Notes: generated by a model not told the origin, from the sequence alone. A DNA stretch of 64,000 nucleotides from Eubacteriales bacterium (GCA_045587385.1 JAZNCE010000003.1:23754-87753); one strand, 5' to 3'; counted from the stretch's first letter, positions 1-24,361 are shown. Numbers and translations: made by a program.

Positions 1-1398
1 GCCATCGCTAACGGCTTTTGCATAGCCTCCTTGGTGCTGCTTTTGAAGGCACCCGCCGAGGGCTTTTGGGGGACTGCTATGCTGACCGCCCTGTTCGTGC
101 TTGCCATCGTGCTTGCATCCGTCCTTTTGCGCCTTGCTTTGACGCGCGACCCGAAAGGCTCGGTCAAGCAATGGTTTATCCCGTGCGGTGCAAGTGCCGT
201 CGGCTTGGTGATGGCTATCCTGCTTGGTACGGGCTGGTTCGGCTACGCGACCTATCTGCCCGATCCCATGGACGTGCAATCGGTGACCGTTACCTATAAC
301 CAAAACGTCACGCTGCTCTCCCACTTGGGGCAAAGTGGCTTTTCCATGGCACATGCCCCGGGTTACAAGGGCATTCCCATGTCCGGTACGAACGCAGGGA
401 CCGATACCTATTATCATTTCCTGTATACCCACGGATTTGAAATTAACGAGGATGTTCTTCCCGTCATGACGCATTCCGAGGATATTGCGACTGTGCTTGC
501 CATTCACGAGGCAGTAATCACCGACGGCAGGCAGACCTTTACGGGACAGCCTGCGGATGCGCACGCGCAAACGGTGGTCCCCGTGCTGTTCAGGGTGACC
601 TATACTCTGAAAAACGGAAAAACGGTGGAGCGTTATTATGAATATCTGACGCTTGAAACGCTTGAACAGACGGTGCAGGCAGAGAATACGCACGCAATAC
701 GCGAGGAGATCGCAAATTCCCATGCGGAAAGAGGCTTTGCGGATATAGATACCATTGAGCTCGGAGATCCCTTGTTTGCAAGCTTTACTGCCGTTGATCT
801 TTCGGATCGTGACCGCCAAGCGTTGATCATCGCGCTGGATACGGATAAGGCTGCGCAGATCTCGGATGCTCGCTACTTCTCGGACGAGCCAAACGACGAG
901 GTCATCGGTATCGTCCGTATGTGCAGATCCACGTATGCGTCTGCTATGATGGATAGCAAGCACCCATCGGACAAGGGATACGAGACCTACTACGTGACGG
1001 CTTCGTGGGAAAACACTATGTCGTTTTTGCGCGAAAGGGAATTGGACGCTTGCTTTGAAAGCGAATATACCGTGACCGACGTGCGCTATCAGCGTTATAC
1101 CCCACGTTGCTTTTTGTTGGACAACTACGGTCGGGCGGTGTCCTTCGTATTTTTCTCTTGCGAAAATACCGTGCAGATCAGGCTTTTGGACAGCTTTGAC
1201 GGAATGGATATCAAGGGCAGTGTTGTCAGTGCCACCGATCCCGTACCTGCCGATATGTGGGATGCCTATCTGGATGCCTCCCGCCCCGTGGCACTCATGA
1301 CCCGCCCCGGTGTACTGGTGCAGATCATTCTCACCAATCAAAAGGGAGAGGAAAAGCTGGTGACAAGATACCTCTACGACCAAGACTTGCCCGAGTAA
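1..1398 (+). CDS. membrane protein, C-terminal part (5' end lies outside the window)
   Basis: Frame 1 is open from base 1, with no stop before the ORF-track Met at 31. Two hydrophobic helices (LTALFVLAIVLASVLL, AVGLVMAILLGTGWF) precede a ~380 aa soluble domain. A hairpin terminator follows. No family recognised. Confidence 0.6.
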   Translation, partial: AIANGFCIASLVLLLKAPAEGFWGTAMLTALFVLAIVLASVLLRLALTRDPKGSVKQWFIPCGASAVGLVMAILLGTGWFGYATYLPDPMDVQSVTVTYNQNVTLLSHLGQSGFSMAHAPGYKGIPMSGTNAGTDTYYHFLYTHGFEINEDVLPVMTHSEDIATVLAIHEAVITDGRQTFTGQPADAHAQTVVPVLFRVTYTLKNGKTVERYYEYLTLETLEQTVQAENTHAIREEIANSHAERGFADIDTIELGDPLFASFTAVDLSDRDRQALIIALDTDKAAQISDARYFSDEPNDEVIGIVRMCRSTYASAMMDSKHPSDKGYETYYVTASWENTMSFLRERELDACFESEYTVTDVRYQRYTPRCFLLDNYGRAVSFVFFSCENTVQIRLLDSFDGMDIKGSVVSATDPVPADMWDAYLDASRPVALMTRPGVLVQIILTNQKGEEKLVTRYLYDQDLPE

Positions 1399-1476: not shown

Positions 1477-1505
1477 TTGACAACTGATTTTTATGGTGTT
1501 ATAAT
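1477..1505 (+). promoter_or_regulatory. sigma-A type promoter for T-box leader 1
   Basis: TTGACA (1477-1482), 17-nt spacer, TATAAT (1500-1505) with an upstream TG (TGT-TATAAT). Confidence 0.6.
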
Positions 1506-1536
1506 AGGTTCAAATTTGAATATCACAAATAACGAC

Positions 1537-1806
1537 TGTGATGAAGAGGGTCGGGAAGAGCGTTTACAGAGAGTTGTCGGGCGGTGCGAGACAATGGCGG
1601 GGCTTTCCGTATGACCTATCGCTTCTGAGTCGGAGGACCGAAAGGCTTGCGCCGTGTGCGTTTGCCCGGTAGACTCCTTCCGTATTTGCTGCGTAAAGGC
1701 AAAGGGCTTGACAGAGTCCGGTAAGTGACGGCTATGCCGTAATTTGAGTGGTACCGCGGGTAATGAACTCGTCTCAAAGGGTTTCTTTTGAGGCGGTTTT
1801 TTGTTT
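1537..1806 (+). promoter_or_regulatory. T-box leader (tRNA-sensing riboswitch), specifier most likely AUC (Ile)
   Basis: K-turn/GA motif: GAC-UGU-GA-U-GAAG paired with CUUC-U-GA-GUC. AGAGAG bulge plus distal loop GGGCGGUGCGAG. T-box sequence AATTTGAGTGGTACCGCGGG at 1741-1760. Terminator hairpin CGTCTCAAAGG/TTTTGAGGCG followed by TTTTTTG (1769-1803). The triplet directly 5' of the CUUC helix is AUC followed by G (1618-1621). Confidence 0.85.
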
Positions 1807-1849
1807 TATTCGGATTTGTAATCATTTCGGAGCAAAAGGAGACAAGAGA

Positions 1850-4150
1850 ATGGATTACAGCTTAAAAGAGGTTGCAGGGAGAATCAAGGACCTGCGAGAG
1901 GCGAAAGGGTACAGTCCTGCAGAGCTTGCAAAGCTGACGGGCGTATCGGTCGAGGACTATCTGCTGCTTGAGCAGGGCGAGACCGATTTCAGCTTTACGT
2001 TTATTTATAAGTGCGCCAAGGCGTGCGACGTCGAAGTGGTTGACCTTTTGGAGGGTCGCAGCACCACGCTGACCTCTTTTGCCATTACCAGAAGGGGAGA
2101 GGGACTTAAAATCCTCAAGCAGCACGGCGTAGAATACAACAACCTTGCCCCCAAGTTCAAGGATAAGCTCGCAGAGCCGTTCTTGGTCAAATTCCCGTAC
2201 ATCCCCGAGGAACAGAACGCGCCCATGAAGCTCAACTCGCACAACGGTCAGGAATTTGACGTCATCGTCAAGGGTTCCTTAAAGGTGCAGGTTGGCAATC
2301 ACGTGGATATTCTGCATGAGGGCGATTCCATTTTCTATAACAGCTTGATCCCCCACGGCATGATTGCCGTCAGCGAGGGCGGCTGTGAGTTCCACGCTGT
2401 CGTACTCAATCCGCAGGACGGACTTGTCAGCGAGGAATACCCCGAGGTGCCCTTCACGGCACCCAAGGCGGTGGAGGTCGAAAGCACAGCTGCCACCGTT
2501 GCGGACAACTTCATTGAGTCCTATTACGATGAGAACGGCGTGTTCAACGGCATCAAGTTCAAGAATGAGGACAAATTCAACTTTGCATTTGACTGCGTGG
2601 ACGCGATTGCCAAGAATACCCCCGATAAGCTGGCTATGATGTGGGTGGCAAACGATAAGACCGACCGCAGATTTACGTTTGCCGATATGAAGAAGTATTC
2701 GGCAAAGACCGCCAACTATTTTGAATCTTTGGGCATCAAGAAGGGCGACACCGTCATGCTGGTGCTCAAGCGTCATTATCAGTTCTGGTTCTGCATGCTG
2801 GCATTGCACAAGATCGGTGCAATCGCCATCCCCGCGACCAATCAGCTTGTCGAGCACGATTTTTCCTACAGATATAAGGCTGCAGGCGTCAAAGCAATCG
2901 TGTGCACTGCAGACGGTGAGGTTGCAAACGAGGCAGAGAAGGCAGCGGCACAATTCCCCGGCATGCGCAAGATCCTTGTCGGCGGCAAAAAGGAAGGCTG
3001 GCACGATTATAACGTAGAAATGGAGCGTTTCAGCACGCACTATTTCCGCACCGAAAATACCCCCTGCGGCAACGATCCCATGCTTATGCTGTTCACCTCG
3101 GGCACAACGGGCTATCCCCGTATTGCAACCCACTCGTATAAGTACGCGCTGGGACATTATCCCACCGCAAAGCATTGGCATAACGTCAAGCCCGGCGGCT
3201 TGCACTTCACCATTTCCGATACCGGTTGGGGTAAGGCTCTCTGGGGCAAGCTGTACGGTCAGTGGCTGTGCGAGGCGGCAACCTTTACCTACGACTTTGA
3301 CAGATTCCACTCCGAGGATATTCTGCCCATGTTCGCAAAGTACGGCATCACCACCTTCTGCGCACCTCCTACCATGTACAGATTCTTTATCAAGGAAGAC
3401 CTTTCCAAATACGACCTTTCCTCCATTCAGTATGCCACTACGGCAGGTGAAGCACTCAATCCCGAGGTCTTTAACCGCTTTAAGGAGGCAACGGGACTGA
3501 CCATCATGGAAGGCTTTGGTCAGACCGAAACCACGCTGTCCATTGCCAACTTCGTAGGCTCTACGCCCAAGATCGGTTCTATGGGCAGACCCAGCCCGCT
3601 TTACGACGTGGCGATCTTAGATCCCGACGGCAATCCCTGCCCGATGGGTGACACGGGTGAGATCTGCATCCGCGTGAAGGATGACGCCCCCTGCGGTCTG
3701 TTTATCGGCTACTATCTGGACGAGGAAAAGACGCACGAGGTCTGGCACGACGGCTATTATCACACAGGCGACCAGGCAAGCATGGACGAGGACGGCTACC
3801 TTTGGTACGTTGGCCGTATCGACGACGTTATCAAGTCCTCGGGCTACCGCATCGGCCCGTTCGAGATCGAGAGCGTGATCATGGAGCTGCCCTACGTACT
3901 GGAATGTGCCGTGACGCCCGTACCCGACGAGGTGCGCGGACAGATCGTCAAGGCGACTATCGTGCTTGTCACGGGCACGGACAAGACCGACGCGCTCAAA
4001 AAGGAGATTCAGGAATACGTCAAGACGCACACTGCGCCTTATAAGTACCCCAGAATCGTGGAGTTCGTGGACGAGCTGCCCAAAACCATCAGCGGCAAGG
4101 TCAGACGCGTGGAAATCCGCAAAAACGACCTGCAGAAGCTGCAGAAATGA
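1850..4150 (+). CDS. XRE-HTH / cupin / AMP-forming medium-chain acyl-CoA synthetase fusion protein
   Basis: Start chosen at MDYSLKE, preceded by AAAGGAGA 8 nt upstream. The ORF-track start at 1748 lies inside the T-box terminator region. N-terminus is an XRE-type HTH (GYSPAELAKLTGVSVEDYLLLEQGE). A cupin follows (GQEFDVIVKGSLKVQVG...HEGDSIFYNSLIPHG). The C-terminal ~530 aa is an adenylate-forming enzyme (FTSGTTGYPR, YYHTGD, SSGYRIGPFEIES, GKVRR), resembling the ACSM/MACS class. Confidence 0.85.
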   Translation: MDYSLKEVAGRIKDLREAKGYSPAELAKLTGVSVEDYLLLEQGETDFSFTFIYKCAKACDVEVVDLLEGRSTTLTSFAITRRGEGLKILKQHGVEYNNLAPKFKDKLAEPFLVKFPYIPEEQNAPMKLNSHNGQEFDVIVKGSLKVQVGNHVDILHEGDSIFYNSLIPHGMIAVSEGGCEFHAVVLNPQDGLVSEEYPEVPFTAPKAVEVESTAATVADNFIESYYDENGVFNGIKFKNEDKFNFAFDCVDAIAKNTPDKLAMMWVANDKTDRRFTFADMKKYSAKTANYFESLGIKKGDTVMLVLKRHYQFWFCMLALHKIGAIAIPATNQLVEHDFSYRYKAAGVKAIVCTADGEVANEAEKAAAQFPGMRKILVGGKKEGWHDYNVEMERFSTHYFRTENTPCGNDPMLMLFTSGTTGYPRIATHSYKYALGHYPTAKHWHNVKPGGLHFTISDTGWGKALWGKLYGQWLCEAATFTYDFDRFHSEDILPMFAKYGITTFCAPPTMYRFFIKEDLSKYDLSSIQYATTAGEALNPEVFNRFKEATGLTIMEGFGQTETTLSIANFVGSTPKIGSMGRPSPLYDVAILDPDGNPCPMGDTGEICIRVKDDAPCGLFIGYYLDEEKTHEVWHDGYYHTGDQASMDEDGYLWYVGRIDDVIKSSGYRIGPFEIESVIMELPYVLECAVTPVPDEVRGQIVKATIVLVTGTDKTDALKKEIQEYVKTHTAPYKYPRIVEFVDELPKTISGKVRRVEIRKNDLQKLQK

Positions 4151-4156
4151 GAATTA

Positions 4157-4186
4157 AGAGGCTAAGCCAAATGGCTTAGCCTCTTT
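4157..4186 (+). terminator. rho-independent terminator
   Basis: AGAGGCTAAGCC-AAAT-GGCTTAGCCTCT is a perfect 12-bp stem, followed by TTTG. Confidence 0.7.
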
Positions 4187-4218
4187 GCAATTGTGAAGAT
4201 GTGAAAGAGCGTCCGCGT

Positions 4219-4246
4219 GATGAACCTCATCCACCGCAACCGCGTC
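4219..4246. repeat. outer inverted repeat, left copy (28 bp, perfect partner at 4473-4500)
   Basis: GATGAACCTCATCCACCGCAACCGCGTC is the exact reverse complement of 4473-4500. A further 14-bp arm (4201-4214 vs 4505-4518) matches with 1 mismatch. Confidence 0.9.
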
Positions 4247-4277
4247 GATGATTCTCAGCTCAACGCCTCGAATCCTC

Positions 4278-4314
4278 TCCGCTGCGGTCCCCCTTCCCCA
4301 GCGGGGCAAGGCTT
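4278..4314. repeat. inner inverted repeat, left copy (37 bp, perfect partner at 4408-4444)
   Basis: TCCGCTGCGGTCCCCCTTCCCCAGCGGGGCAAGGCTT is the exact reverse complement of 4408-4444. The ~30-bp segments between outer and inner repeats (4247-4277 vs 4445-4472) are not complementary. Confidence 0.9.
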
Positions 4315-4407
4315 TCTTCGCGCATCCTCGTCGTTTGCTTATCCGTTTGGGGGAAGTGAATTTTCAAATCCGTCTTGTTATTACTTATCGGCAAGGGTAA
4401 CCGCAAC

Positions 4408-4444
4408 AAGCCTTGCCCCGCTGGGGAAGGGGGACCGCAGCGGA
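4408..4444. repeat. inner inverted repeat, right copy
   Basis: Exact reverse complement of 4278-4314. Confidence 0.9.
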
Positions 4445-4472
4445 AGCAGAAACGAGCAGCGCGAGTTTCAAT

Positions 4473-4500
4473 GACGCGGTTGCGGTGGATGAGGTTCATC
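4473..4500. repeat. outer inverted repeat, right copy
   Basis: Exact reverse complement of 4219-4246. Confidence 0.9.
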
Positions 4501-4665
4501 GTAGGGACGCTCCTTCACCAAAAACGGACATTCCCTTGCAAAACTACTAAAATACATAGACCAAATAGTACAAAAAGGGCTATAGTCAACTATAGAGTCA
4601 AGAGTTTTTTCCAAAGTTTGTTATGATTTTTGTTTTTATATTCCACGCATTTTCTTAAAACTGCA

Positions 4666-20625: not shown

Positions 20626-23028
20626 TTAAGCGCGAAGCGCAATACCCAGCTTGAATTTGAGGTCGTTGATGATTTTTTTGGAGATCTTGTCAGCTTCCTC
20701 AACGGTCAGGGTACGGTCAGTTGCACGCAGCGTGACGCGGAATGCAACGCTCTTGTTGCCCACACCCAGCTTTTCGCCGCGGAAGATGTCGAACAGCTCG
20801 ACCTTTTCTACCAGAGCACCGCCTGCCTTGGCGATCACGTTCATGATCTTGCCAACCTCCAGCTCCTCAGCGCAAACGAATGCGTAGTCGCGGGTTGCAG
20901 CGGGGAACTTGGGCAGGGGCTTGTAGTCGGGCTCGGTATTGGAAACCTCGAACAGCGCGTCAAAGTCGATCTCGGCGCAAAGAACGGGAATGTTCATGCC
21001 GTAATTGTCAGCCACAACGGGGTGAATCTGACCGAATACGCCCAGATACTTGCCGTCTGCAGTGGTCACAACAGCACATCTGCCGGGATGGTAAGAGGGA
21101 TTTTCGGAGCAAGCGGTATACTGTGCACCCTTGACGCCTGCCATCTTGAGCAGATTTTCTACAGCACCCTTCATGTCGTAGAAATCAGCGTCGCCGTACA
21201 TGCCCACGGTCACAACCGTCTTTTCCTCGGGCAGGTTCGCGGGATCTGCGTCGGGCAGATAAATGGTAGCCATTTCAAACAGACGCACGTTCTGATTGGA
21301 GAAGTTGTTGTTTCTCTGCAGAACCTCCATCAAAGAGGGCAGCGCGGTGGTACGCATGACGCTGGTGTCCTCGCCAAGCGGGTTGGAAATGACAACAGAG
21401 GTGCGCAGAGAGCTGTCAGCAGGCAGCGCGATTGCGTCGTAGTACTTGGGGCTGATGAAGGAGAAGGTCTGAATCTGCGAGATGCCCATGCCGTACATCA
21501 GCTGCTCGGTTGCCACAAACAGCTTCTGCTTGGGGGTACGCATGCCCTGCGTGGTCTCTGCCTTGATGCAGGAGGAGGGAATCTTGTCATAACCCCAGAT
21601 ACGCACGATCTCTTCTGCAATATCCTGCATGCAGTTAAGGTCGGAGCGGAAGGAAGGCACGTAAATGTTGCCGTTCTCTACGCGGCACTCCAAGGTGGCG
21701 AGAATGTCGATCATGGTCTGCTCGTCGATCTCGGTGCCAAGGAACTTGTTATACTTTTCGGGCGTGAAGGGCAGCACGACCTGCTCCTTCTTGCCGGGGT
21801 AAACGTCGATCAAGCCGTCCACCACGTCACCTGCGCCCAGCATTTCAACCAGCTGGCATGCGCGCATCAAGCCGGGCAGGCAGTTTTCGGGGTCAAGACC
21901 CTTTTCAAAGCGTGCGGAGGATTCGGTTCTCATGCCGTTCTTCTTTGCGGTCACGCGCGTGTCGGGACCGGAGAAGCAAGCGGACTCAAATACTACAGTC
22001 ACGGTGTCGTTCTCGATTTCGCTGTTCAGTCCACCCATAACGCCTGCGAGTGCGCAAGCCTTATTGCCGTCTGCAATGACCAGCATGGAGGAATCCAGGG
22101 TGTGGCTGACGTTGTCAAGAGATACGAATACCTCACCGTCGCCGGCGCGGCGTACGTTGATCTCCTTGCCCTCGATCTGCTTGTAATCGAACGCGTGCAT
22201 GGGCTGACCGTACTCCAGCATGACGTAGTTGGTAATGTCAACGATATTGTTGATGGGGCGCACACCTGCAGCACGCAGACGTCTGCGCATCCATACGGGA
22301 GAGGGAGCGATCTTGACGTTCTTGACTACCTTTGCAGCGTAGCGATAGCAAAGATCGGGCGCGCTGATGCCTACGGAGAGATAGTTATCAATGCTGTCAC
22401 CGTCCTGCGTACCGTTGACGTATACGGGGGGAATGTGCCACTCAAGATCCATGGAAGCTGCCGTCTCGCGTGCAAGACCGATGACGGACAGACAGTCGGG
22501 GCGGTTGGAGGTGATCTCAAACTCGACTACCGTGTCGCGGATCATTTCACAGTCGCAAATATCCTGTCCGAGATATGCTTCGTAGCTCTCGGGCAGAATC
22601 CAGATGCCGTTTTCCTCAACACCGGGGCAGTCGTTGGCGGTCAAGCCCAGCTCTGCAAACGAGCACATCATACCGTTGGAGTCAATGCCGCGCAGCTTAC
22701 CTGCCTTGATCTGCTTGCCCTCAGCCACGGTTGCGGGAGCGACTGCAGCGGGAACGATCGCGCCAACGAATACGTTCTGCGCGCCGGTAACGATCTGAAT
22801 GGGAGCTTCTGCACCCACGTCGATCTGACAGATCCAAAGGTGATCGGAGTCGGGGTGGTGCTCCATAGCAACTACCTTACCAATGCGAACGTTAGAAATA
22901 TCCTCTGCGAGTACCTCGAAGCCCTCTACCTTGGAGCCGGTATCGGTCATGCGGTCGCAGTACTTCTTAACGTCTGCAATCTTGTCTGTATCAATATAAT
23001 CGTGAAGCCAATTAAAAGAAAGATTCAT
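20626..23028 (-). CDS. pheT: phenylalanine--tRNA ligase beta subunit
   Basis: 800 aa. N-terminus MNLSFNWLHDYID, then tRNA-binding, B3/4, B5 and FDX-ACB domains. Confidence 0.96.
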   Translation of the reverse strand: MNLSFNWLHDYIDTDKIADVKKYCDRMTDTGSKVEGFEVLAEDISNVRIGKVVAMEHHPDSDHLWICQIDVGAEAPIQIVTGAQNVFVGAIVPAAVAPATVAEGKQIKAGKLRGIDSNGMMCSFAELGLTANDCPGVEENGIWILPESYEAYLGQDICDCEMIRDTVVEFEITSNRPDCLSVIGLARETAASMDLEWHIPPVYVNGTQDGDSIDNYLSVGISAPDLCYRYAAKVVKNVKIAPSPVWMRRRLRAAGVRPINNIVDITNYVMLEYGQPMHAFDYKQIEGKEINVRRAGDGEVFVSLDNVSHTLDSSMLVIADGNKACALAGVMGGLNSEIENDTVTVVFESACFSGPDTRVTAKKNGMRTESSARFEKGLDPENCLPGLMRACQLVEMLGAGDVVDGLIDVYPGKKEQVVLPFTPEKYNKFLGTEIDEQTMIDILATLECRVENGNIYVPSFRSDLNCMQDIAEEIVRIWGYDKIPSSCIKAETTQGMRTPKQKLFVATEQLMYGMGISQIQTFSFISPKYYDAIALPADSSLRTSVVISNPLGEDTSVMRTTALPSLMEVLQRNNNFSNQNVRLFEMATIYLPDADPANLPEEKTVVTVGMYGDADFYDMKGAVENLLKMAGVKGAQYTACSENPSYHPGRCAVVTTADGKYLGVFGQIHPVVADNYGMNIPVLCAEIDFDALFEVSNTEPDYKPLPKFPAATRDYAFVCAEELEVGKIMNVIAKAGGALVEKVELFDIFRGEKLGVGNKSVAFRVTLRATDRTLTVEEADKISKKIINDLKFKLGIALRA

Positions 23029-23045: not shown

Positions 23046-24056
23046 TCAGAACTGCTCAAGGAAACGTACGTCGTTCTCATAGAACAGACGAATGTCGTCT
23101 ACGTGATACTTGAGCATGGCGATACGCTCGATACCCATACCGAACGCAAAGCCGCTGTATTCCTCGGGGTCAATGCCGCACATGGTCAGCACGTTGGGGT
23201 GCACCATGCCCGCGCCCAGAATTTCGATCCAGCCCTCGCCCTTGCAAAGTCTGCAGCCCTTACCGCCGCAAGCAAAGCAGGAAACGTCCACCTCTGCGCT
23301 GGGCTCGGTGAAGGGGAAGTGGTGGGGACGGAAACGGCAACGGGTGTCCTCGCCGAACTGTGCCTTTGCAAAGGTCTCCAGCATGCCCTTGAGGTCGCCC
23401 ATGGTAATGCCTTTGTCAACGACAAGACCTTCCATCTGATGGAACAGAGGGGAGTGGGTTGCGTCCATCGCGTCGGAACGGTAAACGCGGCCGGGGGAGA
23501 TGATGCGGATCGGAGGCTTCTGTACCTCCATGGTTCTCGCCTGTACGGGAGAGGTCTGCGAGCGCAAGAGGATATTCTCGGTGATGTAGAAGGTGTCCTG
23601 CGTATCGCGCGCGGGGTGATTTTCCGGAATGTTGAGCTTCTGGAAGTTGTAGAGGTCGTACTCTACCTCGGGACCTTCTGCAATAGAGAAGCCCATACCG
23701 ATAAAGATCTCTTCCATATCTCTCTGTACGCGGGTCAGGGGGTGTACGTGACCGACGCGGGTGGTCTTGCCGGGCATGGTAACGTCCAAGCGCTCAGCCT
23801 TGAGCTGCTCTTGGAGCGCGGCTGCCTTCTGTGCTTCTGCCTTTTGGGCAACGGCTGCCTCGATCTCCTCGCGCACCTGGTTTGCCAGCTGACCGATTAC
23901 GGGTCTTTCCTCGGCAGTCAGCTTGCCCATACCGCGCAATACGGCGGTCAGCTCACCCTTTTTGCCAAGGTATTGAATTCTGATCTGCTCAAGATCTTCG
24001 CCTGCAGCAATCTTTTCAAGTGCTGTCTGACGAATTTGATTCAGCATTTCTTTCAT
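23046..24056 (-). CDS. pheS: phenylalanine--tRNA ligase alpha subunit
   Basis: Class II motifs [22 protein letters not shown] and [12 protein letters not shown]. Confidence 0.96.
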
Positions 24057-24074: not shown

Positions 24075-24350
24075 TTTAGAAATTGTTTTTTATAAATATA
24101 AAAAGCCGCCCCATACAAACATGGGACGGCATAAAAACCGCGGTACCACCCAATTAAAGGCGTGTGGCGCATAAGCGCACAAAGCCAACACTCTGCTGAC
24201 AAATAACGGTGTCTGCCGTGCCTCGCTACCCCGAAATGGCTCACAAGACCTGCTCCGAAGGGAAATGCAACCCACGCCCCGCAAGACCGCTCTCAGCCGT
24301 GTCGGTCCTCTCTGTGTGCTTTTGCCGTGTGCGCTGACTTCATCATCGCA
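24075..24350 (-). promoter_or_regulatory. T-box leader, specifier UUC (Phe), controlling pheST
   Basis: All on the minus strand. UGC-GAU-GA-U-GAAG paired with CUUC-G-GA-GCA. AGAGAG plus distal loop. UUC lies directly 5' of the CUUC helix (complement of 24262-24264). T-box sequence AATTGGGTGGTACCGCGG (complement of 24138-24155). Terminator GCCGTCCCAT/ATGGGGCGGC plus a T run (24101-24130). Confidence 0.9.
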
Positions 24351-24361
24351 TTTACCGCTAT

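What the first reader, a model, noticed from the sequence alone, without database searches (positions are those of the whole stretch)
1850..4150. A single polypeptide fuses a DNA-binding HTH, a cupin sensor and an adenylate-forming ligase (BirA-like logic)
**Seen.** One uninterrupted 766-aa frame carries three domains.
- An XRE-type HTH at aa 1-65.
- A cupin at about aa 120-215.
- A complete AMP-binding acyl-CoA synthetase, with all core motifs intact.

**Established knowledge.** HTH-cupin pairs are normally free-standing small-molecule-responsive regulators. Enzyme/repressor fusions are rare; BirA, PutA and NadR are examples. BirA is itself an adenylate-forming enzyme.

**Inference.** The protein may both activate an organic acid and act as a DNA-binding regulator gated by substrate or acyl-adenylate. 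That would sit on top of the T-box control of its own mRNA.
Basis: partly seen in the sequence, partly recalled or inferred. Interest (0 to 1): 0.65.

Follow-up and report, generated by a model that had tools for sequence, protein, structure and literature searches.

The report
T-box-gated branched-acid CoA ligase fusion
A gut Clostridia gene joins a regulator-like HTH–cupin module to a 2-methylbutyrate-type CoA ligase and is switched on by an isoleucine-sensing T-box RNA, so it is probably the entry step for making isoleucine from a branched short-chain fatty acid, while the idea that its HTH still binds DNA is doubtful.

Summary
Window 1850-4150 (+) encodes one uninterrupted 766-aa protein with HTH_3, Cupin_2, AMP-binding and AMP-binding_C domains, behind a T-box leader. 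It is not an assembly join: more than 240 clusters at 90% identity, and all 80 loci inspected from a species-level genome scan (mostly Oscillospirales gut MAGs), carry it.

- **Enzyme.** The ligase half is about 60% identical to Methanosarcina MacsMa (PDB 3ETC), whose preferred substrate is 2-methylbutyrate.
- **Leader.** All 78 loci with upstream DNA have the T-box. The specifier is AUC (Ile) here and in about 70 loci, and GUA/GUC (Val) in a sister clade.
- **Paralogues.** Ile- and Val-type proteins differ at G461A and L464M beside the acyl-pocket Trp.
- **Context.** In many genomes the two sit in tandem ahead of ferredoxin, VorB-type 2-oxoacid:ferredoxin oxidoreductase and branched-chain aminotransferase genes.

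Best reading: an amino-acid-starvation-induced ligase that feeds reductive carboxylation of 2-methylbutyrate to isoleucine.

The BirA-like idea is weakly supported. The would-be recognition helix is conserved but acidic, and no conserved operator exists. The one conserved promoter-proximal element is an RNA helix closing the leader. The role of the N-terminal module is unresolved; I favour a sensor or oligomerisation domain. This is a new variant of known kinds and appears uncharacterised.

The parts
1477..1505 (+). Sigma-70-type promoter: TTGACA (1477-1482), 17-nt spacer, TATAAT (1500-1505), preceded by an A-rich tract
   Evidence: Read directly. The same TTGACA-17-TATAAT with an upstream A-tract is present in nearly all homologous loci, and TATTGACAA is the top enriched k-mer.
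1512..1530 (+). 5' arm of an RNA helix that closes the whole leader (AAAUUUGAAUAUCACAAAU), starting at about the predicted +1
   Evidence: Conserved in the window clade while the -10 to +1 spacer is not. Complementary to the post-terminator segment in 7-11 of 11 core pairs. Compensatory CACAAAUA:UAUUUGUG versus CGCAAAUA:UAUUUGCG in a second clade. Present in the MFE and centroid folds.
1529..1779 (+). T-box leader (Stem I to antiterminator)
   Evidence: Rfam RF00230, 70.1 bits, E=7e-14, full model 1-219. The T-box core TGGTACCGCG lies upstream of the gene in 78/78 homologous loci. Homologous leaders in L081 score 90.7 and 100.2 bits.
1618..1620 (+). Specifier codon AUC (isoleucine), followed by G1621 and the Stem I closing helix CUUC (1622-1625)
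   Evidence: The Rfam alignment places AUC at the consensus specifier position. The same position reads ATC in 69 loci and GTA/GTC in 6. The same reading rule gives UUC upstream of pheST in this window.
1749..1752 (+). UGGU of the T-box bulge, which pairs with the tRNA 3' end (U opposite discriminator A73)
   Evidence: Invariant TGGTACCGCG in all loci. That A73 is the discriminator of tRNA-Ile and tRNA-Val rests on established knowledge.
1770..1808 (+). Intrinsic terminator of the leader (CGUCUCAAAG...CUUUUGAGGCG plus U-tract)
   Evidence: Sequence. The hairpin is in the fold and is conserved in homologues.
1799..1819 (+). 3' arm of the leader-closing helix (UUUUGUUUUAUUCGGAUUUG)
   Evidence: The A-to-G differences in this arm keep G.U pairs.
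1850..4150 (+). CDS, 766 aa: HTH-cupin-acyl-CoA ligase fusion
1862..2053 (+). XRE-type five-helix HTH domain (aa 5-68) with an acidic helix 3 (VSVEDYLLLEQGETD)
   Evidence: Pfam HTH_3. AF2 helices at 5-19, 23-30, 34-41, 49-58 and 63-68. Residue frequencies.
2171..2407 (+). Cupin barrel (aa 108-186) with invariant H131, E135, P168-H169-G170
   Evidence: Pfam Cupin_2. Invariant columns. AF2 strands.
2411..2494 (+). Variable, disordered linker (aa 188-215)
   Evidence: 37% mean identity versus 67-80% in the domains. pLDDT below 50.
2495..4147 (+). Macs-type AMP-forming acyl-CoA ligase (aa 216-766)
   Evidence: PDB 3ETC E=1e-202 over 540 residues. Foldseek top hit is 3ETC. Pfam and NCBIfam.
3230..3244 (+). 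Acyl-pocket segment G461-K-A-L464-W465. W465 corresponds to MacsMa Trp259. G461 and L464 discriminate Ile-type from Val-type paralogues.
   Evidence: Alignment to 3ETC, anchored on Gly459-Tyr460-Lys461 (PMC10455477). G461A is 60/60 versus 15/15 and L464M is 56/60 versus 13/15.
4156..4185 (+). Perfect 14-bp hairpin just after the stop codon (terminator-like, weak T tail)

Best explanation
**What it is.** The gene is a monocistronic unit: a strong promoter, an isoleucine-specific T-box leader, then the coding sequence.

**How expression is controlled (inferred).** When tRNA-Ile is uncharged, the leader lets transcription read through. This follows from the anatomy and from established T-box mechanism.

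**What the enzyme does (inferred).** The C-terminal 550 residues are a MacsMa-type AMP-forming ligase that converts 2-methylbutyrate to 2-methylbutyryl-CoA. This follows from about 60% identity to the characterised enzyme and a conserved pocket Trp.

**Where the product goes (inferred).** The thioester is reductively carboxylated by a VorB-type 2-oxoacid:ferredoxin oxidoreductase and transaminated by IlvE to give isoleucine. This is the classical rumen route from branched-chain volatile fatty acids to amino acids. Gene linkage in relatives supports it; those genes are not within this 64-kb window.

**Sister paralogue.** A paralogue with a Val specifier and a tighter pocket (G461A, L464M) most likely does the same for isobutyrate to valine.

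**The N-terminal module (lower confidence, about 0.5).** The XRE-cupin module probably descends from a local XRE-cupin repressor that fused to its target enzyme. It is under purifying selection, but its DNA-reading surface is acidic. I therefore favour a non-DNA-binding role: a ligand- or metal-sensing or oligomerisation domain that modulates the ligase. Its ligand would be common to the Ile and Val paralogues, because no specificity-determining position lies in the cupin.
For: **Architecture and spread.**

**Ligase identity.**
- 3ETC matches at E=2e-202, about 60% identical over 540 residues.
- MacsMa prefers 2-methylbutyrate, and its Trp259 is critical (PMC10455477).
- The equivalent W465 is invariant.

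**T-box.**
- One search detects it in the window, and it is present in 78/78 loci.
- The specifier is AUC in 69 loci and GUA/GUC in 6.
- Fourteen further Val leaders precede second ligase copies.
- The Rfam alignment places the codon at the consensus specifier position.
- The same rule reads UUC before pheST, an internal control.

**Specifier and enzyme co-diverge.**
- The Val-type proteins form one clade.
- G461A is 60/60 versus 15/15, and L464M is near-perfect, next to W465.

**Pathway context.**
- L081 reads [AUC T-box]-ligase, [GUA T-box]-ligase, P-loop protein, ferredoxin, POR_N, TPP_enzyme_C, POR-gamma, Aminotran_4.
- The alpha subunit passes NCBIfam VorB (535 > 399) and the aminotransferase passes BCAT (482 > 307).
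- The same tandem cluster occurs in about 17 further loci.

**Physiology.** Branched-chain volatile fatty acids are used for Ile and Leu synthesis and are growth factors for ruminococci (PMC10658910; PMC7356843 citing Allison 1962).

**N-terminal module.**
- It is conserved (HTH 67%, cupin 70%, against 37% for the linker).
- Helix 3 is acidic.
- There is no operator.
- No specificity-determining position lies in the cupin.
- The fold has non-DNA-binding precedents in HppE, HEPD and MPnS.
- Sister ligases are fused to other accessory domains, GNAT and VOC.
Against: - No enzyme assay exists for any member. The NCBIfam MbcS and acetate-CoA ligase equivalog cut-offs are not met, so substrate assignment rests on homology, the specifier and context.
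- The window itself has no VOR or IlvE within 64 kb, and its neighbours are unrelated.
- The window T-box scores below Rfam's gathering threshold.
- Whole-domain net charge does not discriminate. A control HTH_3 protein in this window is also net -4, so the argument against DNA binding rests on local helix-3 chemistry and the absence of an operator.
- The HTH differs between paralogues at K54R and T50A, which hints at a paralogue-specific partner that my reading does not explain.
- The AF2 inter-domain geometry is not determined: pTM is 0.63 for the full protein and 0.45 for the N-terminal module.
Confidence: 0.62

Rival explanations
1. This is a BirA-like bifunctional protein. The HTH binds an operator, at its own or another promoter, and the cupin or the acyl-adenylate state of the ligase gates that binding. 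This would add a substrate-sensing transcriptional layer on top of the T-box.
For: - The HTH_3 and Cupin_2 domains pass Pfam cut-offs, and the module aligns end to end with the XRE-cupin regulator 1Y9Q.
- XRE-cupin transcription factors are local repressors of adjacent metabolic genes and bind palindromes as dimers (PMC7901475).
- The HTH is under purifying selection and carries paralogue-specific substitutions K54R and T50A.
- The window has a perfect 12-bp palindrome, TTCAAATTTGAA, at 1509-1520 overlapping the transcription start.
- An acyl-CoA ligase acting as a transcription factor has a reported precedent in P. aeruginosa FadD1 (PMC12754631).
Against: - Helix 3 and the following loop carry five acidic and no basic residues, and this is conserved family-wide. 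DNA-binding relatives are polar or basic at these positions.
- The left half of the window's palindrome is not conserved even among close relatives.
- The conserved part of that element starts at +1 and co-varies with a downstream RNA segment.
- No motif other than the promoter boxes is shared by 41 non-redundant promoters, and the element does not recur in the 64-kb window.
- BirA is not homologous to ANL ligases (established knowledge).
Confidence: 0.17
2. The ligase mainly supplies branched acyl-CoA primers for branched-chain membrane fatty acids, as S. aureus MbcS does, rather than for amino-acid synthesis.
For: - The best NCBIfam model is MbcS, at 452 bits.
- MbcS activates 2-methylbutyrate and isobutyrate for branched-chain fatty-acid synthesis (PMC10026030 and PMC11167679, abstracts).
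- The window gene is not linked to VOR or IlvE.
Against: - The MbcS equivalog cut-off (850 bits) is far from met.
- Control by Ile- and Val-specific T-boxes ties expression to tRNA charging, not to membrane state.
- The Val-type paralogue is followed on the same strand by VorB-type oxidoreductase and BCAT genes.
- Both uses of the acyl-CoA could coexist.
Confidence: 0.1
3. The N-terminal HTH-cupin is a second catalytic domain. It would be a metal-dependent cupin enzyme like HppE, HEPD or MPnS, acting on the acid or its CoA ester, and the HTH-like part would be structural.
For: - The top Foldseek matches of the N-terminal model are HppE (E about 1e-11), HEPD and MPnS.
- There is a sequence-level hit to Psf4/HppE.
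- H131, E135 and H169 are invariant, a pattern like a 2-His-1-carboxylate site.
- A sister ligase is fused to a VOC/glyoxalase domain.
Against: - TM-scores are only about 0.33, and the regulator 1Y9Q matches almost as well.
- 1Y9Q also shows His...Glu and PHG in the alignment, so the H/E/H pattern does not mark an enzyme.
- No extra chemical step is needed between acid and acyl-CoA in the proposed pathway.
- The achiral isobutyrate paralogue keeps the same cupin.
- The model confidence is low (pTM 0.45).
Confidence: 0.08
4. The unit works catabolically or for ATP conservation: branched-chain amino acid, to 2-oxo acid, to acyl-CoA, to acid.
For: VOR and BCAT are reversible and are used oxidatively in amino-acid fermenters (established knowledge). 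The gene linkage itself carries no direction.
Against: - T-boxes induce on amino-acid shortage, the opposite of what catabolism needs.
- AMP-forming ligases run towards the thioester (established knowledge).
Confidence: 0.03

Closest known systems
MacsMa, the medium-chain acyl-CoA synthetase of Methanosarcina acetivorans (PDB 3ETC)
   Same: About 60% identity over 540 residues. All ANL core motifs are shared, as are the pocket Trp (Trp259 = W465) and the Gly-Tyr-Lys CoA-site segment. The characterised preferred substrate is 2-methylbutyrate (PMC10455477).
   Different: MacsMa has no N-terminal HTH-cupin: its chain aligns from residue 38 to query residue 223. It is archaeal and is not known to be T-box controlled.
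MbcS, the branched short-chain acyl-CoA synthetase of Staphylococcus aureus
   Same: It is the best NCBIfam model. It activates 2-methylbutyrate and isobutyrate (PMC10026030).
   Different: The score of 452 bits is well below the equivalog cut-off of 850. MbcS feeds membrane fatty-acid synthesis, has no HTH-cupin module, and no T-box is reported for it.
XRE-cupin transcription factors (PuuR, ErfA, PsdR, PauR; structure 1Y9Q)
   Same: The N-terminal 190 residues have the same HTH_3 plus Cupin_2 order and length, and align end to end with 1Y9Q. Those factors act locally on adjacent metabolic genes (PMC7901475), which fits an origin by fusion with a target gene.
   Different: Here the module is covalently fused to an enzyme. 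Helix 3 is acidic and no palindromic operator is conserved.
BirA (biotin protein ligase and repressor), with PutA and NadR as other enzyme/repressor fusions
   Same: One polypeptide combines an N-terminal HTH with an adenylate-forming enzyme.
   Different: BirA's catalytic fold (class II aaRS-like) is unrelated to ANL ligases, and its HTH is winged rather than XRE-type (established knowledge). BirA has a defined operator and adenylate-driven dimerisation; none of this is shown here, and the operator search was negative.
T-box-controlled branched-chain amino-acid genes (ileS, ilv-leu and others)
   Same: Same riboswitch class, same specifier logic, and a terminator/antiterminator design.
   Different: The controlled gene is an organic-acid CoA ligase (in relatives, plus VOR and IlvE) rather than a synthetase, a de novo pathway gene or a transporter. 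I found no paper describing this.
HppE, HEPD and MPnS (HTH-like plus cupin Fe(II) enzymes)
   Same: They are the best structural matches of the N-terminal module. They show that this two-domain fold can work without binding DNA.
   Different: Identity is only 14-25% and TM-scores are low. Their context is phosphonate metabolism, which is unrelated.
P. aeruginosa FadD1 (acyl-CoA ligase reported to bind promoters)
   Same: An ANL ligase reported to double as a transcription regulator (PMC12754631).
   Different: FadD1 has no HTH-cupin module. Its DNA binding is attributed to a leucine-zipper-like segment inside the ligase, and it is a long-chain enzyme of a different subfamily.

Membership tests
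T-box riboswitch (Rfam RF00230) | Match to the covariance model at or above the curated gathering score | tested here: not met
   70.1 bits against a gathering score of 93, although E=7e-14 over the full model. Homologous leaders score 90.7 and 100.2 bits. The pheST leader in this window also falls short at 85.6 bits, so the threshold is strict for this clade.
T-box riboswitch (Rfam RF00230) | Stem I specifier loop presenting a codon next to the closing helix | tested here: met
   AUC+G at 1618-1621 lies at the consensus specifier position. The position is conserved in 75 loci. The rule is validated on pheST, which reads UUC.
T-box riboswitch (Rfam RF00230) | Conserved T-box sequence with a UGGN bulge, and mutually exclusive antiterminator and terminator | tested here: met
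   AAUUUGAGUGGUACCGCG at 1741-1758. The terminator at 1770-1808 overlaps the 3' side of the antiterminator. The core is invariant in 78/78 loci.
T-box riboswitch (Rfam RF00230) | Read-through induced by uncharged cognate tRNA | not testable with these tools
   Requires in vitro transcription with tRNA-Ile.
ANL superfamily, Macs-type short/medium-chain acyl-CoA synthetase | AMP-binding and AMP-binding_C domains with motifs A3, A5, A7, A8 and the A10 lysine | tested here: met
   Pfam 202.7 and 80 bits. The motif residues are invariant.
ANL superfamily, Macs-type short/medium-chain acyl-CoA synthetase | The alternate pocket Trp (MacsMa Trp259) | tested here: met
   W465 aligns with Trp259 (PMC10455477) and is invariant.
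ANL superfamily, Macs-type short/medium-chain acyl-CoA synthetase | Preference for 2-methylbutyrate | not testable with these tools
   Inferred from homology, the Ile specifier and context. No assay exists.
MbcS equivalog (NCBIfam NF047394) | Score at or above the curated equivalog cut-off | tested here: not met
   452.5 bits against 850. I do not file it as MbcS.
XRE-cupin transcription factors | HTH_3-type domain followed by Cupin_2 | tested here: met
XRE-cupin transcription factors | Polar or basic DNA-reading surface on helix 3 and the following loop | tested here: not met
   The sequence is VSVEDYLLLEQGETD. E35, E/D36 and D46 are conserved, and the local charge is -5 against 0 to +1 in 1Y9Q, SinR and an in-window control.
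XRE-cupin transcription factors | Palindromic operator at its own or a neighbouring promoter | tested here: not met
   No shared motif beyond the promoter boxes in 41 non-redundant promoters. The window's palindrome is not conserved.
XRE-cupin transcription factors | Sequence-specific DNA binding and repression | not testable with these tools
   Needs EMSA, DAP-seq or genetics.
BirA-like enzyme/repressor | Homology to the biotin protein ligase fold | tested here: not met
   All sequence and structure matches of the catalytic part are ANL ligases.
BirA-like enzyme/repressor | Adenylate-dependent operator binding | not testable with these tools
   No operator was found computationally. A biochemical test is needed.
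HppE-like HTH-cupin metalloenzymes | 2-His-1-carboxylate metal site in the cupin | tested here: inconclusive
   H131, E135 and H169 are invariant, but the regulator 1Y9Q shows a similar pattern. Metal binding was not tested.

The most novel reading that the evidence does not exclude
The protein really is a bifunctional enzyme and regulator. The XRE-cupin module, despite its acidic helix 3, would bind nucleic acid or a transcription component in a ligand- or adenylate-dependent way. Expression of the branched-acid salvage pathway would then need both an uncharged tRNA (sensed by the T-box) and available acid (sensed by the protein). That would be an AND gate built from an RNA sensor and a fused protein sensor.
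Probability: 0.15. Interest if true: 0.85.

Novelty: new variant of a known kind. Interest (0 to 1): 0.62.

Why it matters
- **An old physiological question becomes testable.** Rumen and hindgut fibre degraders have been known since the 1960s to need isobutyrate, 2-methylbutyrate and isovalerate, and to carboxylate them into valine, isoleucine and leucine. This family, with T-box specifiers matched to ligase paralogues and linked VorB-type oxidoreductase and BCAT genes, provides a concrete gene set for the entry steps in Oscillospirales. These are abundant and mostly uncultured gut bacteria.
- **The T-box repertoire grows.** It now includes organic-acid CoA ligases. A parallel Phe T-box before a PaaK-like ligase, and a Leu T-box before another ligase fusion, suggest a general design.
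- **A natural domain-recruitment experiment.** An XRE-cupin module is recruited onto an enzyme, with a conserved but acidic "recognition" helix.
- **Practical points.**
  - Rfam's gathering score misses these leaders.
  - Current annotation ("AMP-binding protein") hides the function.
  - The G461/A461 pocket switch is a simple marker for predicting which acid a genome can salvage.

Tried and rejected
1. **Operator hypothesis for the conserved TTTGAATATCACAAA element (1515-1529).** Rejected. It occurs once in the window. Conservation starts at +1 and not in the spacer. It is complementary to the post-terminator RNA, with compensatory changes.
2. **Whole-domain net charge of the HTH as a test of DNA binding.** Rejected as a discriminator. 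A control HTH_3 protein in this window is also -4. Only the local helix-3 and loop chemistry is used.
3. **Thermodynamic folding of Stem I alone.** Uninformative (z=+0.63). Comparative reading and the Rfam alignment were used instead.
4. **A third, Leu-specific HTH-cupin paralogue.** I expected one. The Leu T-box instead precedes a LeuA-like gene and a TIM-barrel-ligase fusion.
5. **Foldseek with the full-length model.** It returned only ligases. The separate N-terminal model has low pTM (0.45), and its matches (HppE versus 1Y9Q) do not separate enzyme from regulator.
6. **VOR and IlvE in the window.** None found by tblastn.
7. **Filing the protein under MbcS or acetate-CoA ligase equivalogs.** The cut-offs are not met.
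8. **Primary MacsMa papers.** PMC2767475 and PMC2976453 are not held, so pocket residues other than Trp259 could not be mapped from the literature.
9. **Neighbour-joining placement of non-fused ligases inside the fusion tree.** Not interpreted, because the alignment includes N-terminal gaps.


Full report

Yes. The + strand frame 1748..4150 is open. The functional start is ATG 1850: it follows a GGAG ribosome-binding site, lies downstream of the leader terminator, and homologues begin with the same residues. The 766-aa product passes the Pfam cut-offs for four domains:
- HTH_3, aa 12-65
- Cupin_2, aa 128-184
- AMP-binding, aa 252-622
- AMP-binding_C, aa 672-750

An assembly join or frameshift is excluded:
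- 120 clusters at 90% identity are 87-92% identical, have the same length and domains, and come from independent contigs up to 366 kb.
- A second set of 120 clusters forms a sister clade.
- Full-length fusions are found down to 41% identity in an exhaustive search of 1.84 billion representatives.
All 80 that I inspected align across the HTH-cupin-ligase junction.

The carriers are almost all uncultured Oscillospirales or other Clostridia (Acutalibacteraceae, Oscillospiraceae, Ruminococcus) from ruminant, bird and human guts. The only names given are "AMP-binding protein", "cupin domain-containing protein" or "helix-turn-helix domain-containing protein".

**2. The enzyme half.**

Residues 216-766 match PDB 3ETC, the Methanosarcina acetivorans medium-chain acyl-CoA synthetase MacsMa. 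The match has E=2e-202 and is about 60% identical over 540 residues. 3ETC is also the top structural match of the AlphaFold model.

MacsMa prefers 2-methylbutyrate, and its Trp259 forms the alternate acyl pocket (PMC10455477). I anchored the numbering on Gly459-Tyr460-Lys461. Trp259 then corresponds to W465, which is invariant in the family, as are the adenylation and thioesterification motifs and the A10 lysine K750.

The best NCBIfam model is S. aureus MbcS, a 2-methylbutyrate/isobutyrate ligase. The score (452 bits) is well below its equivalog cut-off of 850, so I do not call the protein MbcS.

**3. The leader.**

Rfam finds a complete T-box at 1529-1779 with E=7e-14. Its 70.1 bits are below the gathering score of 93. 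The same is true of the undoubted pheST T-box elsewhere in this window, at 85.6 bits.

- **Presence.** The T-box core TGGTACCGCG lies 80-230 nt upstream of the start codon in all 78 homologous loci that include upstream DNA.
- **Specifier in the window.** The triplet next to the Stem I closing helix is AUC (Ile) at 1618-1620.
- **Specifier in relatives.** The same position reads ATC in 69 loci and GTA or GTC (Val) in 6. Fourteen more Val leaders precede second ligase copies.
- **Checks on the reading.** The Rfam alignments place these triplets at the model's specifier position. The same reading rule gives UUC for pheST.
- **Discriminator.** The bulge is always UGGU, which fits the A73 discriminator of tRNA-Ile and tRNA-Val (established knowledge).

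**4. Specifier and enzyme co-diverge.**

The Val-leader proteins form one clade. I compared 60 Ile-labelled with 15 Val-labelled proteins:
- Perfect discriminators are G461A and K54R.
- Near-perfect discriminators are L464M, T50A and L5I.

Positions 461 and 464 flank the pocket Trp W465. Bulkier residues in the Val-type fit a smaller acid, isobutyrate. That last step is inference. None of the discriminating positions lies in the cupin.

**5. Genomic context gives the pathway.**

On a 377-kb Acutalibacteraceae contig (L081) the gene order, all on one strand, is as follows:
- [AUC T-box]-fusion ligase
- [GUA T-box]-fusion ligase
- a ParA/CbiA-like P-loop protein
- a 4Fe-4S ferredoxin
- POR_N/PFOR_II, TPP_enzyme_C and POR-gamma subunits
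- a class-IV aminotransferase

The alpha subunit passes the NCBIfam VorB cut-off (535 > 399) and the aminotransferase passes the branched-chain aminotransferase cut-off (482 > 307). The same tandem cluster recurs in about 17 other loci.

This is the enzyme set needed for acid, to acyl-CoA, to 2-oxo acid by reductive carboxylation, to amino acid. It matches the route established physiologically for rumen organisms (PMC10658910; PMC7356843 citing Allison et al. 1962).

In the window the gene is monocistronic. Its neighbours are unrelated (GH63-like, a two-component system, HtrA, MgtC), and there is no VOR or IlvE within 64 kb. For this genome the downstream steps are therefore inferred.

**6. 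The N-terminal module.**

- **Family resemblance.** It aligns end to end with the free-standing XRE-cupin regulator 1Y9Q.
- **Fold.** It models as a five-helix XRE fold plus a cupin barrel, joined to the ligase by a disordered, poorly conserved linker.
- **Selection.** It is under purifying selection: HTH 67% and cupin 70% mean identity to the window protein, against 37% for the linker. R11, R16, Y37, E41, D46, H131, E135 and P168-H169-G170 are invariant or nearly so.

XRE-cupin factors are local repressors that bind palindromes as dimers (PMC7901475). A plausible origin is therefore fusion of such a repressor with its target gene.

Present-day DNA binding is doubtful, for three reasons:
- Helix 3 and the following loop read V-E-[E/D]-Y...G-E-T-D, with five acidic and no basic residues. 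This is conserved in 67 proteins. The equivalent stretches of 1Y9Q, SinR and a control HTH_3 protein of this window have a local charge of 0 to +1.
- Whole-domain charge is not informative, because the control protein is also net -4.
- Among 41 non-redundant promoters only the -35 box, A-tracts and the start of Stem I are enriched.

Structure comparison does not settle the function. The best matches are the Fe(II) enzymes HppE, HEPD and MPnS, whose HTH-like domain does not bind DNA. The regulator 1Y9Q follows closely, and all TM-scores are low.

No specificity-determining position lies in the cupin, so any ligand is probably common to the Ile and Val paralogues. Sister ligases carry other accessory domains, GNAT and glyoxalase/VOC, which shows that this enzyme family readily acquires add-on modules.

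**7. The conserved promoter-proximal element is RNA.**

In the window's clade, AAATTTGAATATCACAAA lies between the -10 box and Stem I.
- Conservation begins at about +1, and the spacer upstream of it varies.
- The element is complementary to the terminator U-tract and the following bases, UUUUGUUUUAUUC(A/G)(A/G)AUUU. The A-to-G differences keep G.U pairs.
- In a second clade the pairing co-varies: CACAAAUA:UAUUUGUG in L057, L065, L071 and L079, against CGCAAAUA:UAUUUGCG in L055 and L061.
- The helix appears in both the MFE and centroid folds of 1511-1852.

This removes the only operator candidate. It also reveals a leader-closing helix of unknown role.

**8. Verdict.**

The best-supported account is an Ile-starvation-induced 2-methylbutyrate-CoA ligase that feeds reductive carboxylation to isoleucine. 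It belongs to a paralogue family whose T-box specifiers match the ligase pockets. The fused XRE-cupin module is conserved and its function is unresolved; I favour a sensing or oligomerisation role.

I found no paper describing the architecture or T-box control of such ligases. I rate it a new variant of known kinds, of moderate-to-high interest, because it makes the old question of how branched-chain volatile fatty acids are used directly testable.

Noticed in passing
window 1512-1530 and 1799-1819 (+): The 5' end of the leader transcript pairs with the terminator U-tract and the bases after it, enclosing the whole T-box in a long-range helix. A second clade shows compensatory changes. The function (mRNA stability, processing or termination tuning) is unknown.
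   Followed up: partly
window 24119-24355 (-), with genes 23049-24056 and 20629-23028 (-): A second T-box with specifier UUC precedes pheS-pheT. It scores 85.6 bits, below Rfam's gathering score of 93, so a default Rfam scan of the window reports no T-box at all.
   Followed up: yes
window 4201-4518: A nested pair of 56-nt inverted repeats (4201-4256/4463-4518 and 4278-4333/4389-4444, each 84% complementary) lies just downstream of the gene. It produces mirror-image ORFs on both strands. It looks like a MITE or a large hairpin element and is unexplained.
   Followed up: no
L018 1623-5597 (also L003, L031, L035; divergent in L055, L057, L061, L065, L071, L079): A Leu-specifier (CUC) T-box precedes a LeuA-like protein (HMGL-like plus LeuA_dimer, 462 aa). 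After it comes an 831-aa fusion of a xylose-isomerase-like TIM barrel (AP_endonuc_2) with an AMP-binding ligase. This unit sits next to the Ile/Val ligase genes and its function is unknown.
   Followed up: partly
L083 minus strand 8788 to 5766; also L001 near 3508 (-): A T-box reading UUC+A (Phe) precedes a PaaK-like ligase (AMP-binding plus AMP-binding_C_2, 435 aa), an ACT-pair protein and DAHP synthase. This may be the aromatic counterpart, phenylacetate to phenylalanine, of the logic proposed here.
   Followed up: partly
P0124, P0137, P0129, P0123: Close relatives of the ligase carry other fused domains: C-terminal GNAT acetyltransferase (P0124, P0137), C-terminal glyoxalase/VOC (P0129), or an unassigned 143-aa N-terminal extension (P0123).
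   Followed up: no
L081 12292-12954, and equivalents in L052-L077: A 220-aa ParA/CbiA-like P-loop protein with no NCBIfam hit is conserved between the Val-type ligase and the ferredoxin-VOR genes. It may be an Fe-S maturation or assembly factor.
   Followed up: no
window 31-1398 (+): A 455-aa ORF directly upstream has no Pfam match at E<1e-4. It ends in a hairpin terminator just before the ligase promoter.
   Followed up: no
P0158 and P0160: Two database proteins join the HTH-cupin and the ligase N-terminus to KH and R3H domains after about residue 370. These are probably chimeric contigs or gene calls rather than real architectures.
   Followed up: no
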